Origin: a virus
Lineage: Duplodnaviria > Caudoviricetes
IMG/VR virus record: IMGVR_UViG_3300011113_000415
Direction: 5' to 3' (one strand)
DNA length: 64,000 bases
Shown here: positions 13,066-17,314 of the stretch, piece after piece
How the letters are laid out: every line of letters starts with the position of its first letter
Position numbering within the stretch: the stretch's first letter is position 1
Program-made: the position numbers and the translations under genes
Notes under the pieces: generated by a model
The model's database searches: none
Told to the model about the DNA's origin: nothing
The model's input: only the letters and a program-made list of their open reading frames with translations

Positions 13066-13094
13066 TTGACACATAATTAAATATTGTATATAAT
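13066..13094 (+). promoter_or_regulatory. internal consensus sigma70 promoter
   Basis: TTGACA-N17-TATAAT. Confidence 0.85.
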
Positions 13095-13109
13095 ACAACA
13101 AGAAACAAT

Positions 13110-13187
13110 GCAACGGTGGCAGAGTGGTCCAATGCATGGGATTGCAAATCCCAAAAACCGCTGGTTCAAATCCAGCCCGTTGCTCCA
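13110..13187 (+). tRNA. tRNA-Cys(GCA)
   Basis: cloverleaf, U73, CCA. Confidence 0.93.
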
Positions 13188-13189
13188 TA

Positions 13190-13432
13190 CGTTCCAGCGT
13201 CACTGGATAGTCCGACCCAGACGATGAGAAGTGCAATGACATGCACGGGTGGTTCTGAAGAGGCGAATCTTCACAGTAGAGATACTGCGGTCCAACCAAA
13301 CCGGCGTTAGCAACACGAGAGCGGTCCCTGTCGGGAAGCGGGTGGAGGGTGTAAGTGATGAATAGACTAGTTGGGGCAACTTGACGAAATTTCTGATACA
13401 CTATAATTACCGCCGGGGGACGTCAGAGCAAT
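13190..13432 (+). ncRNA. GC-rich, probably pseudoknotted RNA of unknown class
   Basis: long-range pairs 13252-58/13423-29, 13301-06/13411-16, 13324-28/13417-21 (crossing), plus several hairpins. Confidence 0.6.
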
Positions 13433-13439
13433 CAAATAC

Positions 13440-13514
13440 CGCGGGATGGAGAAGCGGTAACTCGTCAGGCTCATAACCTGAAGATCGGCGGTTCGATTCC
13501 GCCTCCCGCAACCA
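13440..13514 (+). tRNA. initiator tRNA-fMet(CAT)
   Basis: C1:A72 mismatch, loop CTCATAA, CCA. Confidence 0.9.
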
Positions 13515-13517
13515 ACT

Positions 13518-13591
13518 GCCCTTTTAGTTAAATGGTATAACAGTTGATTTGTAATCATCAATTGGCAGTTCGATTCTGTCAAGGGGCACCA
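13518..13591 (+). tRNA. tRNA-Thr(TGT)
   Basis: cloverleaf, CCA. Confidence 0.92.
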
Positions 13592-13596
13592 CAATT

Positions 13597-13845
13597 ATGC
13601 TAGATTATATCATTACTTTTGTTGCTGTGTTTGCTACTGATTTGATTTACATTCTTTTTGTAAAGTCAATTCAGGACAACCAGCCTTGGCGTGCCGCATG
13701 GTGGTCAATGGTTTGTACACTCACAGCCTCAGTGGCCGTGATCAACTACATTGAAAATCATTGGGCCTTGATTCCGGCCCTGGCAGGTGCATTCTTCGGT
13801 GCCTATGTAGGCATGAAGTACAAGAAAAAAATCATCTCCGATTAG
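13597..13845 (+). CDS. small multi-TM membrane protein
   Basis: three hydrophobic segments; stop codon inside tRNA-Pro. Confidence 0.75.
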   Translation: MLDYIITFVAVFATDLIYILFVKSIQDNQPWRAAWWSMVCTLTASVAVINYIENHWALIPALAGAFFGAYVGMKYKKKIISD

Positions 13846-13911
13846 TATAGCCTGGTAGTACCCGTGGTTTGGGACCATGAAGCGGGAGTTCAAATCTCTC
13901 ATCGGAGACCA
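13836..13911 (+). tRNA. tRNA-Pro(TGG)
   Basis: CGTGG-TTTGGGA-CCATG, CCA. Confidence 0.9.
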
Positions 13912-14181: not shown

Positions 14182-14649
14182 ATGAAAAAACTTGACCTAG
14201 ACCAAGTGAAAAATTATATACGGGCACAAACGCCCCAAACTGCTGTGTATCTTGGTTGCGACAGTGAACGTGTGAAAGTTCGCGGACGCTGGTATGCTGA
14301 CTATGCTTTGGCCATTGTGGTTCACATTGACAGTTGCCATGGTTGCAAAATCTTTGGCGAAGTTCAAAGAGAACTGGACTGGGATCAACGAAGTGATCGT
14401 CCCAGCATGAGACTCATGAACGAAGTATACAAAGTGGGTGACCTTTTTCAGAGTCTGGCAGATGTGTTGGAAGATAGATTGGTTGAAGTACACCTTGACA
14501 TCAATCCTGATCAAATGTACAAGTCAAGCATGGTGATCAATCAGGCCATTGGCTATATCAAAGGCACCTGCAATGTTACTCCCATGGTCAAGCCACTCTC
14601 TTTCGCGGCAAGTTACGCGGCGGACCGTTTACTTGTAGTTAACGGTTAG
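14182..14649 (+). CDS. ribonuclease H-like YkuK family protein
   Basis: VYLGCDS, RLMNEV, VHLDIN and AASYAAD motifs. Confidence 0.8.
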   Translation: MKKLDLDQVKNYIRAQTPQTAVYLGCDSERVKVRGRWYADYALAIVVHIDSCHGCKIFGEVQRELDWDQRSDRPSMRLMNEVYKVGDLFQSLADVLEDRLVEVHLDINPDQMYKSSMVINQAIGYIKGTCNVTPMVKPLSFAASYAADRLLVVNG

Positions 14650-16686: not shown

Positions 16687-16751
16687 AACAGCGTAAACTG
16701 CGATTCAGAAAAGGATTCAAGACGGCGGGGCAGTGCCGCCCAGGTCCACCA
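16687..16751 (+). ncRNA. ssrA: two-piece tmRNA, acceptor piece
   Basis: GAC-GGCGG-GGCAGTG-CCGCC T arm then CAGGTCC-A-CCA, complementary to 17134-40 with G3:U70. Confidence 0.85.
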
Positions 16752-16763
16752 TAAGGAAGTTTG

Positions 16764-17132
16764 ATGCGTATTACTGAGATTGCTAATACAAAACTATCAT
16801 TTAAAACAACAAAAGGCAGTAATGCTATTGGTGTTGAAATGAACGTTGACGGGCAATACGCAGGGATGTTTCAATACGATGCAGGTAACGGAAGAAGTTT
16901 AGTAGAGTTAGATCCAGACTTTCAAGGCAAAGGTTTGGGTAAAATTCTAATACTAAAAGAAATCTATACTGCTATCATGTCTGGATTAGACTATGTAGAA
17001 GATGAGTCACGCACCCAAGCATTTGATAATGCTATGAATAGTTTGGCAGACGCTGGTTACATAGTCAATGATGACGAGTATTGGTATGTCACTAGTGAAG
17101 GTGAGCAATATCTCAAACAAGTTTCTTTATGA
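16764..17132 (+). CDS. GNAT-like acetyltransferase inside the tmRNA intervening segment
   Basis: ELDPDFQGKGLGKIL acetyl-CoA motif A; AAGGA RBS right after the CCA; stop 1 nt before tmRNA G1. Confidence 0.75.
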   Translation: MRITEIANTKLSFKTTKGSNAIGVEMNVDGQYAGMFQYDAGNGRSLVELDPDFQGKGLGKILILKEIYTAIMSGLDYVEDESRTQAFDNAMNSLADAGYIVNDDEYWYVTSEGEQYLKQVSL

Positions 17133-17133
17133 T

Positions 17134-17314
17134 GGGCCTGACACAGGATCGATTGGGTCAAGAGTAGGGATAGTGGCGCTCGGTAAGGTAGAAGCCGTTA
17201 GGGTTGGGAGTTCCCAGCCGAAGAAGCAAAAAAAGTAAAGGCAAACGACTCACAGTTCCAATTGGCCGCGTAAAGTAGCCTAGGGTAGGAAATACCTCGT
17301 AACAGAAACCACCA
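17134..17314 (+). ncRNA. ssrA: two-piece tmRNA, coding piece (tag ANDSQFQLAA)
   Basis: GGGCCTGA..GGATCGA 5' end; tag frame 17241-17273 GCAAACGAC...GCCGCGTAA; TTGGGTC pairs with GATTCAA 16714-20. Confidence 0.9.

What the first reader, a model, noticed from the sequence alone, without database searches (positions are those of the whole stretch)
13190..13432. Pseudoknotted GC-rich ncRNA between tRNA-Cys and initiator tRNA
Crossing long-range helices (13301-06/13411-16 and 13324-28/13417-21) lie inside an outer helix (13252-58/13423-29), with hairpins TCCAG/CTGGA, GTGCA/TGCAC, TGAAGA/TCTTCA and CAGTA-GAGA-TACTG. This compact architecture is typical of ribozymes or large structured RNAs found in phage tRNA clusters.
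Basis: seen in the sequence. Interest (0 to 1): 0.62.

Follow-up and report, generated by a model that had tools for sequence, protein, structure and literature searches.

The report
Knotted orphan RNA in phage tRNA array
The gap between the tRNA-Cys and initiator tRNA genes of this giant lake phage is the gene for a tightly folded RNA of about 243 bases; it belongs to a large RNA family seen only in phages, absent from the RNA catalogue searched, whose fold is well supported but whose job is unknown.

Summary
Window 13188-13431 (+) is a real structured non-coding RNA gene. No Rfam 15 family matches it even at E<=10, and folding the single sequence gives no signal (z about 0). The evidence comes from comparing copies. 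At least 116 distinct copies occur in uncultured phage contigs, many over 300 kb, with one copy in four of five near-complete (99-100%) genomes and two in the fifth. Across them 92.7% of proposed pairs hold, against 32-49% when partners are slid, and 29 pairs change on both sides.

The fold has hairpins H1, H2, H3 and H6, an H1-H3 loop-loop contact, and the H2 and H6 loops pairing side by side on GGGUGGU. A long irregular 3' helix carries a swappable kink-turn arm.

Its helix 13301-06/13411-16 is contradicted, and its outer helix 13252-58/13423-29 is unsupported.

The RNA fills a tRNA slot in the array, and contigs from lake RNA libraries of four studies cover parts of it. RNase P RNA, T-box, box C/D, GOLLD/ROOL, manA and T4 rnaC/rnaD membership were tested and not met.

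Function is inferred only: most likely a stable, trans-acting RNA released by tRNA processing. This scan has met the same family before on other DNA, and those reports also left its function unknown.

The parts
13066..13094 (+). Sigma-70-type promoter-like site (TTGACA, 17 nt, TATAAT; 12 of 12) upstream of tRNA-Cys; probable start of the transcript that carries the RNA
   Evidence: A consensus match only; function is inferred.
13110..13187 (+). tRNA-Cys (GCA) with encoded CCA; its 3' end abuts the RNA
13188..13431 (+). The structured RNA gene, from the conserved start (N)ACGUU to the conserved end CAGAGCA(N)
   Evidence: Sharp boundaries of similarity at 13188/9 and 13430 in relatives with different flanks. 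Model R1, built without this copy, scores 13186-13330 at 86.1 bits, E 4.6e-26.
13193..13207 (+). H1 hairpin (13193-97/13203-07). Its loop 13199-202 GUCA pairs with the H3 loop.
   Evidence: Covariation. Loop-loop pair 13199:13240 is GC 82, AU 25, GU 8.
13210..13222 (+). H2 hairpin (13210-14/13218-22). Its loop ACC 13215-17 pairs with GGU 13248-50. The window copy has one C-A mismatch, 13213/13219.
   Evidence: Compensated loop changes in L080, L232 and 3-4 other copies.
13223..13230 (+). Conserved purine-rich joiner within GAUGAGAAG
   Evidence: Nearly invariant in 116 copies.
13231..13246 (+). H3 hairpin (13231-35/13242-46). Its loop 13237-40 UGAC pairs with the H1 loop.
13247..13253 (+). GGGUGGU strand. 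It receives the H2 loop (13248-50) and, probably, the H6 loop (13251-53) side by side.
   Evidence: The H6-loop register is less certain than the H2-loop one.
13254..13287 (+). Optional insert with hairpins H4 (13256-61/13268-73) and H5 (13274-78/13283-87); absent from 78 of 116 copies
13288..13303 (+). H6 hairpin (13288-91/13300-03) with the loop motif AACC
13305..13321 (+). Stem A (13305-07/13315-17) plus the crossing single pair 13314:13321
   Evidence: 13307:13315 is CG 72, UA 44. 13314:13321 is UA 102, CG 14, with never a mismatch.
13324..13341 (+). 5' strands of the long 3'-domain helix: PL1 13324-28, bulge UG, PL2 13331-33, bulge GGAA, PL3 13338-41
13342..13348 (+). Invariant internal-loop strand GUGGA(R)G, opposite 13402-09
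   Evidence: The reading as a UAA/GAN-type loop comes from memory and was not tested.
13349..13401 (+). Peripheral arm with a kink-turn. C-stem is 13349-53/13397-401; bulge AGU; GA (13357-58) faces GA (13395-96), i.e. box C-like GUGAUGA and box D-like CUGA. The inner hairpin 13369-73/13377-81 is invariant.
   Evidence: C-stem covariation. 88 of 116 arms keep the NNN-GA...GA signature. Arm length is 2-60 nt, and arms are exchanged between cores.
13402..13421 (+). Loop strand (C)UAUAAUUA, then the 3' strands of PL3 (13410-13), PL2 (13414-16) and PL1 (13417-21)
13422..13431 (+). Invariant single-stranded tail G(N)CAGAGCA; partner unknown
13440..13514 (+). tRNA-Met (initiator-like), 8 nt downstream. 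RNase P cutting at its 5' end would set the RNA's 3' end.
   Evidence: The processing step is inferred from established RNase P function.

Best explanation
Window 13188-13431 (+) is the gene for a stable, non-coding, multiply pseudoknotted RNA of about 243 nt. It is one copy of a large family seen only in phage sequences and absent from Rfam 15; the copies here come from uncultured phage contigs, many from freshwater lakes.

Shown. The family has a conserved core:
- hairpins H1, H2, H3 and H6;
- an H1-H3 loop-loop contact;
- the H2 and H6 loops docked side by side on the strand GGGUGGU;
- a small knotted stem A;
- a long irregular helix PL1-3 with invariant bulges and an invariant internal loop.

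It also has two variable peripheral sites: the H4/H5 insert and a mostly kink-turn arm.

Inferred. The RNA is transcribed with its neighbouring tRNAs from the consensus promoter at 13066-13094. It is freed because it sits in a tRNA slot. 3' maturation of tRNA-Cys would define its 5' end, and RNase P cutting at tRNA-fMet (13440) would define its 3' end. It then accumulates and acts in trans through its invariant core. The kink-turn arm only braces the fold.

My best guess for the target is the translation apparatus: tRNA acceptor ends or the ribosome. The exposed invariant G-rich loop GGGUGGA(R)G and the GGAA bulge would be the contact surfaces. I put only about 0.2 on that last step.
For: - Homologs. 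Three IMG/VR word scans, one metagenome scan and one genome scan gave 116 distinct full-length copies.
- Boundaries. Similarity begins and ends sharply at 13188/9 and 13430, whatever the flanks.
- Structure. On 33 close copies, 97.6% of cells pair against 36-46% when slid, 29 of 57 pairs change on both sides, and 0 of 500 shuffles reach this. On 116 copies the figures are 92.7% against 32-49%, 654 both-side cells against 200 in shuffles, and 0 of 500.
- Tertiary pairs. Mutual information found them. They are compensated in L080 and L232 and in the UAACG/CGUUA subfamily.
- Independent membership. Model R1, built from 43 short-form copies that do not include the window, scores the window at 86.1 bits, E 4.6e-26. 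It is the only hit in 64 kb.
- Gene-like distribution. There is one copy in four near-complete (99-100%) genomes of 345-364 kb and two in a 525-kb genome.
- tRNA-slot position. 66 of 116 copies start 0-3 nt after a tRNA's CCA. 37 end 1-9 nt before the next tRNA. All are on the tRNA strand, and the neighbours are many different tRNAs.
- RNA-library cover. Contigs from four freshwater metatranscriptome runs of four studies cover parts of the element. Examples are 13337-13413 and 13335-13422 with no differences, and 13348-13430 with two. Loose ends show other family variants in the same libraries.
- Not coding. Indels of whole hairpins and swapped arms would break any frame.
- Peripheral arm. Arms are 2-60 nt long. 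Identical arms sit on cores only 54% identical, and cores at least 97% identical carry unrelated arms.
Against: - No function was tested, and no partner is known.
- The RNA-library contigs cannot show ends, strand or level, and DNA carry-over in those libraries is not excluded.
- The enzyme that cuts between the upstream CCA and the RNA is not identified.
- The invariant 5' strand (R)AACGUU and the 3' tail CAGAGCA have no assigned partner.
- Acting in trans is an inference from independence of context.
- The suggested contact with tRNA ends or the ribosome rests only on a resemblance of G-rich loops, recalled from memory, to the CCA-binding loops of RNase P and T-box RNAs.
- No kink-turn-binding L7Ae-type protein was found in ten phage records.
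Confidence: 0.7

Rival explanations
1. It is a cis-acting element of the tRNA operon. It could be an RNA that changes the transcribing polymerase, as the put RNAs of phage HK022 do for antitermination. It could instead be a sensor that gates transcription or processing of the downstream tRNAs and genes.
For: It is promoter-proximal in the window: the promoter is at 13066, and the RNA is the second gene. Several relatives sit just after promoter-like or hairpin sequences rather than after a tRNA. Its complexity is riboswitch-like.
Against: There is no terminator or expression platform; the next tRNA often starts 1-9 nt after the tail. What lies downstream is unrelated from copy to copy: tRNAs of many kinds, ORFs, or nothing within 100 nt in 67 of 116. 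No riboswitch or antiterminator family in Rfam matches.
Confidence: 0.12
2. It is a self-cleaving ribozyme. It would cut at its own 5' edge, as HDV-like, glmS and hatchet ribozymes do, and so free the 3' end of the upstream tRNA where no RNase P site exists.
For: 66 of 116 copies begin 0-3 nt after the CCA of a tRNA. The first bases, (R)AACGUU, are nearly invariant and unpaired. The fold is knotted with swappable peripheral arms, as in known ribozymes.
Against: 36 of 116 copies have no tRNA within 100 nt upstream. Such a cut would leave a 2',3'-cyclic phosphate on A76, which blocks charging (established chemistry). No known self-cleaving family matches. No read-level 5' ends could be obtained.
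Confidence: 0.08
3. It is a decoy or sponge: an abundant RNA that ties up a host RNA-binding protein, a nuclease, or a defence system that targets tRNA.
For: Phage tRNA arrays are linked to counter-defence (PMC12851939 abstract, listed). The family is seen only in phage sequences. RNA-library contigs cover it.
Against: It has no tRNA-like anticodon arm, T-arm or acceptor end. There are no repeated protein-binding motifs. A decoy rarely needs three pseudoknots and such strict conservation of single-stranded joiners.
Confidence: 0.07
4. It is a much reduced RNase P RNA, or a T-box-type RNA that binds tRNA.
For: There are short resemblances, compared from memory. GGAUAGUC recalls CR-I, and GAUGAAUAGACU recalls J18/2-P2 of RNase P. 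GGGUGGA...ACCGCC recalls the T-box sequence. All three RNAs deal with tRNA.
Against: No RNase P or T-box model hits the region at E<=10. RF00010 finds nothing at E<=10 in five near-complete family genomes. The 'CR-I' bases form the local hairpin H2, with covariation. The 'J18/2' bases lie in the dispensable arm. No RnpA was found. There is no terminator/antiterminator pair.
Confidence: 0.02
5. It is merely a spacer that holds an internal promoter for tRNA-fMet (TTGACG 13381-86, TATAAT 13402-07).
For: Both hexamers are present, and they are fully conserved in the copies that carry this arm type.
Against: The spacing is 15 bp, whereas the phage's own promoters have 17 bp and 12 of 12 matches. 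TTGACG exists only in one arm type. UAUAAU is part of an internal loop kept in every arm type, and also where no gene follows. A promoter does not explain 29 pairs that change on both sides.
Confidence: 0.01

Closest known systems
Phage T4 species 1 and species 2 RNAs (rnaC, rnaD; NC_000866 70908-71171)
   Same: They are small stable RNAs encoded inside a phage tRNA cluster on the tRNA strand, a few bases from the neighbouring tRNA. They are cut out of tRNA transcripts, and their function is still unknown.
   Different: There is no sequence or fold relationship: R1 scores at most 10.5 bits on the T4 cluster. In T4, rnaD ends in ACCA and rnaC in a tRNA-like T-arm. This RNA has no tRNA-like end, is about twice as long, and is pseudoknotted.
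GOLLD (RF01998) and ROOL (RF03087) 'ornate' RNAs
   Same: They are phage or prophage RNAs, often near tRNA islands. Their folds are elaborate and supported by covariation, with pseudoknots. No protein partner is known, and the function is unknown (PMC12286853).
   Different: They are 580-800+ nt against 178-281 nt here. No model match at E<=10. Their homo-oligomeric cages are shown by cryo-EM; nothing is known about oligomers of this RNA.
Kink-turn motif, box C/D type
   Same: The window's arm has a C-stem supported by covariation. It is followed by a 3-nt bulge and GA facing GA, within GUGAUGA...CUGA, and 88 of 116 arms keep the signature.
   Different: It is not a box C/D guide RNA. There are no guide stretches and no C'/D' boxes. 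No L7Ae-family protein was found in ten phage records. The arm is dispensable: L163 has a plain hairpin there.
manA RNA (RF01745), a riboswitch candidate of T4-like cyanophages
   Same: It is a phage-borne, pseudoknotted candidate RNA known mainly from aquatic metagenomes (PMC2864571).
   Different: manA sits in 5' UTRs of metabolic genes. This RNA is free-standing in tRNA arrays. No match at E<=10 for the window copy or at E<=1 for two relatives.

Membership tests
Uncatalogued tRNA-array RNA family of uncultured jumbo phages (this report) | Match to a covariance model of the 5' domain built without the window copy | tested here: met
   R1 scores 13186-13330 at 86.1 bits, E 4.6e-26.
Uncatalogued tRNA-array RNA family of uncultured jumbo phages (this report) | Core 3'-domain sequence CUGUCGGGRAGCGGGUGGA and CUAUAAUUACCGCCG with PL1-PL3 pairing | tested here: met
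   Present at 13328-46 and 13401-15. PL pairs hold in 115-116 of 116 copies.
Bacterial RNase P RNA (RF00010 and relatives) | Score against the family model | tested here: not met
   No hit at E<=10 in the region or in five near-complete family genomes.
Bacterial RNase P RNA (RF00010 and relatives) | Long-range P4 helix formed by CR-I and CR-V | tested here: not met
   The CR-I-like bases 13208-13222 form the local hairpin H2, with G:C to C:G and C:G to G:C/A:U exchanges.
T-box leader (RF00230) | Model match; Stem I with specifier; competing terminator and antiterminator before a regulated gene | tested here: not met
   No hit at E<=10. No terminator follows. The downstream genes are unrelated from copy to copy.
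Kink-turn motif | Canonical stem, 3-nt bulge, tandem sheared G-A pairs | tested here: inconclusive
   The sequence pattern fits, and the C-stem covaries. The G-A pairs are invariant within this arm type, so they cannot be tested by covariation, and there are no structure data.
Box C/D guide RNA | C/D and C'/D' boxes, 10-12-nt guides, an L7Ae partner | tested here: not met
   Only 5 nt lie between the candidate boxes. PF01248 is absent from ten phage records.
GOLLD / ROOL / manA / self-cleaving ribozyme families in Rfam 15 | Score against the family model | tested here: not met
   cmscan of 13100-13520 at E<=10 lists only tRNA and chance matches. The same holds for two relatives at E<=1.
T4 rnaC/rnaD | Sequence or structure likeness; tRNA-like 3' end | tested here: not met
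   R1 scores at most 10.5 bits. The tail here is CAGAGCA, with no T-arm or CCA.

The most novel reading that the evidence does not exclude
The conserved core is a new natural ribozyme, or a new RNA that binds the tRNA acceptor end (after RNase P RNA and the T-box). Jumbo phages would carry it to process, protect or sequester tRNAs. The swappable kink-turn arms would serve as stabilising or specificity modules.
Probability: 0.12. Interest if true: 0.9.

Novelty: new variant of a known kind. Interest (0 to 1): 0.66.

Why it matters
Complex, knotted folds with strictly conserved unpaired joiners are mostly seen in ribozymes, riboswitches and the RNAs of the translation machinery. New widespread classes of that complexity are rare.

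This class is compact, about 200 nt in its commonest form. It has at least 116 distinct natural variants that already define the fold. It occurs as one copy in four of the five near-complete giant-phage genomes examined and two in the fifth, and it is present in lake RNA libraries.

It sits where phages keep the genes with which they take over translation, next to tRNAs and a phage tmRNA. Its function therefore bears on how giant phages reshape host translation or evade defences aimed at tRNA. It also bears on the sixty-year-old puzzle of the orphan stable RNAs in phage tRNA clusters, such as T4 species 1 and 2.

At this size, structure determination and in vitro assays are feasible.

Tried and rejected
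- Single-sequence folding is uninformative on both strands: z is 0.26 and -0.13.
- Rfam 15 gave only tRNAs, the tmRNA and chance hits, at gathering score and at E<=10.
- INPHARED cultured phages matched only the flanking tRNAs, so no cultured carrier is known.
- RNase P idea. Short look-alike motifs raised it. The models, the H2 covariation, the dispensable arm and the absence of RnpA argue against it.
- T-box idea. GGGUGGA and ACCGCC are the two sides of one helix and loop here, not a bulge, and there is no terminator.
- SRP, 5S loop E, sarcin-ricin loop, hammerhead core and group I P7 resemblances were noted by eye from memory. All are short and within chance. None is supported by Rfam, so I dropped them.
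- L7Ae-family protein: not found in ten phage records.
- Pairing of UGGA with the U73-CCA end of tRNA-Cys. tRNA-Cys is a neighbour in 21 of 129 tRNA neighbour slots, against about 5% of nearby tRNAs. Shared gene order can explain this, and most neighbours have other discriminator bases. It remains a speculation.
- Antisense targets of the arm, 5' strand, joiner and tail within the 64-kb window: nothing beyond chance. The best is a 12-nt match to the tail at 11502-13, E 0.03.
- A partner for the invariant tail CAGAGCA: TGCTCTG occurs no more often than chance.
- Bacterial homologs. One hit in 185,579 species genomes, on a 23-kb contig binned with a Haliscomenobacter MAG whose flanks match phage contigs. 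No credible hit in 300 genomes sampled from two phyla; the best, at 22 bits, lies inside a coding region that I read by eye as a HAD-type hydrolase.
- RNA contigs. The low or absent cover of 13168-13200 and 13069-13101, and the summed depth peak over 13300-13365, cannot be read as ends or levels.
- Literature: four full-text searches found no description of this family. The supplement of the IMG/VR structured-RNA survey (PMC10690425) is not held, so the family may be among its 8,495 unnamed candidates.

Full report
**What is there**

The window carries a phage-type tRNA array: 24 tRNAs by ARAGORN, plus a permuted tmRNA at 16690-17273. Between tRNA-Cys, which ends at 13187, and an initiator-like tRNA-Met, which starts at 13440, lie 252 bases with no credible ORF. 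No Rfam 15 family matches them even at E<=10. Folded alone, the stretch is no more stable than shuffled sequence: z is 0.26 on + and -0.13 on -. A perfect TTGACA-17-TATAAT site at 13066-13094 precedes tRNA-Cys.

**Homologs**

A 16-mer from the stretch found 17 true relatives in IMG/VR. A 22-mer found 51 contigs in the metagenome collection, many of them the same records as freshwater-lake IMG/VR contigs. Similarity always begins at window 13188/9 and ends at 13430, whatever lies on either side.

Contigs from RNA libraries then showed variants in which the middle of the element continued into unrelated sequence. Many of these contigs are 100-525 kb.

In all I collected 116 distinct full-length copies of 178-281 nt; the commonest form is about 200 nt. 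Five family genomes that CheckV puts at 99-100% complete, three of them with terminal repeats, carry one copy (four genomes of 345-364 kb) or two (one of 525 kb).

Among 185,579 species genomes, the only true hit is a 23-kb contig binned with a Haliscomenobacter MAG. Its flanks resemble the phage contigs. A covariance model of the 5' domain found nothing credible in 300 genomes sampled from two phyla.

**Structure**

On 33 close copies, my helix set pairs in 97.6% of cells, against 36-46% when the 3' partners are slid. 29 of 57 pairs change on both sides, and no shuffle in 500 reaches this. On all 116 copies, with the tertiary pairs included, 92.7% of cells pair against 32-49% slid. There are 654 both-side cells against 200 in shuffles, and again 0 of 500. 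The low value for H1 in that run comes from MAFFT shifting the window row. In my own alignment H1 pairs in 88-100% of copies.

The helices, in window coordinates:
- H1: 13193-97/13203-07
- H2: 13210-14/13218-22
- H3: 13231-35/13242-46
- H4 and H5, optional: 13256-73 and 13274-87
- H6: 13288-91/13300-03
- stem A: 13305-07/13315-17
- PL1: 13324-28/13417-21
- PL2: 13331-33/13414-16
- PL3: 13338-41/13410-13
- arm stem: 13349-53/13397-401

Mutual information added four tertiary contacts:
- The H1 loop GUCA (13199-202) pairs with the H3 loop UGAC (13237-40). The pair 13199:13240 is G:C in 82 copies, A:U in 25 and G:U in 8. A subfamily has UAACG with CGUUA instead.
- The H2 loop ACC pairs with GGU 13248-50. 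This is compensated in L080 (C:G to A:U), in 3-4 other copies (A:U to G:C), and wholesale in L232 (GUCC with GGAC).
- The H6 loop ACC probably pairs with the next GGU, 13251-53. In L232 it is AGG with CUU or CCU.
- A lone crossing pair, 13314:13321, is U:A in 102 copies and C:G in 14, with never a mismatch.

**Peripheral parts**

The arm at 13349-13401 reads as a box C/D-type kink-turn: GUGUA-AGU-GAUGA...CUGA-UACAC. 88 of 116 arms keep that signature. But arms range from 2 to 60 nt, and one copy (L163) has only a plain hairpin. Identical arms sit on cores only 54% identical, while cores at least 97% identical carry unrelated arms. The arm is therefore a swappable brace, not the active part.

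No L7Ae-type protein was found in ten phage records. I therefore expect the turn to be held by RNA contacts. That is an inference.

The hexamers TTGACG and TATAAT inside the arm region are 15 bp apart. Only the second is kept in other arm types, as part of an invariant RNA internal loop.

Four hairpins and helix 13324-28/13417-21 are confirmed. Helix 13301-06/13411-16 pairs in only 67% of cells, and all its bases have other partners supported by covariation. The outer helix 13252-58/13423-29 never changes on both sides, and five of its seven pairs are missing from 78 of 116 copies.

**Context and expression**

All copies lie on the tRNA strand.
- 66 of 116 start 0-3 nt after a tRNA's CCA.
- 14 more follow an unrecognised piece of about 70 nt.
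- 37 end 1-9 nt before the next tRNA.
- The neighbours are many different tRNAs.

Contigs from four freshwater metatranscriptome runs, from four studies, cover parts of the element. Several cover it without a single difference, and they also reveal other family variants. Contigs cannot give ends, strand or level, and DNA carry-over in such libraries is possible. I count this as support for transcription, not as proof.

**What it is not**

- RNase P RNA. No model hit in the region or in five family genomes. The look-alike 'CR-I' bases form hairpin H2. No RnpA was found.
- T-box, GOLLD, ROOL, manA or a known self-cleaving ribozyme. No model hits.
- T4 rnaC or rnaD. In T4, rnaD ends in ACCA and rnaC in a tRNA-like T-arm, and they score at most 10.5 bits with R1.

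**How it most likely works**

Shown: it is a conserved, knotted RNA gene that sits in tRNA slots and is present in RNA libraries.

Inferred: it is transcribed with the tRNAs. RNase P cutting at the next tRNA and 3' maturation of the previous one would release it. It is stable, and it acts in trans through its invariant core, because its surroundings differ from copy to copy while the core does not.

The exposed invariant pieces are the candidates for contacting a partner:
- (R)AACGUU at the 5' end
- GAUGAGAAG between H2 and H3
- the GGAA bulge
- the loop GGGUGGA(R)G opposite CUAUAAUUA
- the tail CAGAGCA

Given the company it keeps (tRNAs and a tmRNA), I favour the translation apparatus as the target, at about 0.2. 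The rivals are a cis-acting operon element, a self-cleaving ribozyme that frees the upstream tRNA, and a decoy.

**Novelty**

Four full-text searches found no description. The family may be hidden among the unnamed candidates of PMC10690425, whose supplement I could not read.

This scan has met the same family several times on other DNA. Those follow-ups reached the same verdict: real, uncatalogued, function unknown.

The kind, an orphan structured RNA in a phage tRNA cluster, is known from T4 species 1 and 2 and from GOLLD and ROOL. The fold is new.

Noticed in passing
L014:2553-2622; L009:7329-7403 (also L027, L056, L066, L072, L081, L055, L090): In several relatives a conserved piece of about 70 nt lies between a tRNA and the RNA. 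Two types occur: GCCACACCGCCUGG...CACUAGGUCCUGCAACCGUGGC..., and ...GGCUAAGUGGUCGCCCGUUAUGGGGCCAGCCCACC. ARAGORN and Rfam (E<=1) recognise neither. They may be odd tRNA-like RNAs or further orphan small RNAs.
   Followed up: partly
window 13337-13413: One RNA-library contig (run X4) covers exactly the PL3 hairpin and arm with no differences, and then runs straight into Illumina adapter at 13413. Another (run X6) starts with adapter at 13206. These are short inserts. Whether they mark natural fragments cannot be told from contigs.
   Followed up: no
window 14182-14649 (+): A 155-aa ORF inside the tRNA array matches Pfam PF04308 (RNaseH_like, E 4e-14). It is a possible nuclease gene sitting among the tRNAs.
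   Followed up: no
L110 (NZ_JBBAKG010000090.1, Haliscomenobacter sp. MAG, 23-kb contig): This is the only hit among the species genomes. Its flanks match phage contigs (L059, L060, L073). The contig is either a phage contig binned with the MAG or a weak hint at the host.
   Followed up: partly
L275 (T4 NC_000866 70908-71046, rnaC): T4 rnaC contains GGAACGUUCGGAUA. This resembles the family's 5' end, GAACGUUCC...GGAUA, with H1 removed. It is too short to count as homology, and R1 does not support it.
   Followed up: yes
window 13597-13845 (+) and 13836-13911: The stop codon of an 82-aa ORF after tRNA-Thr lies inside tRNA-Pro. An earlier first-reader note flagged the same thing.
   Followed up: no
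G006 (IMG/VR record of L209, 525 kb): 119.6 kb (-) and 424.2 kb (+): The largest genome carries two copies of the RNA on opposite strands, far apart.
   Followed up: no
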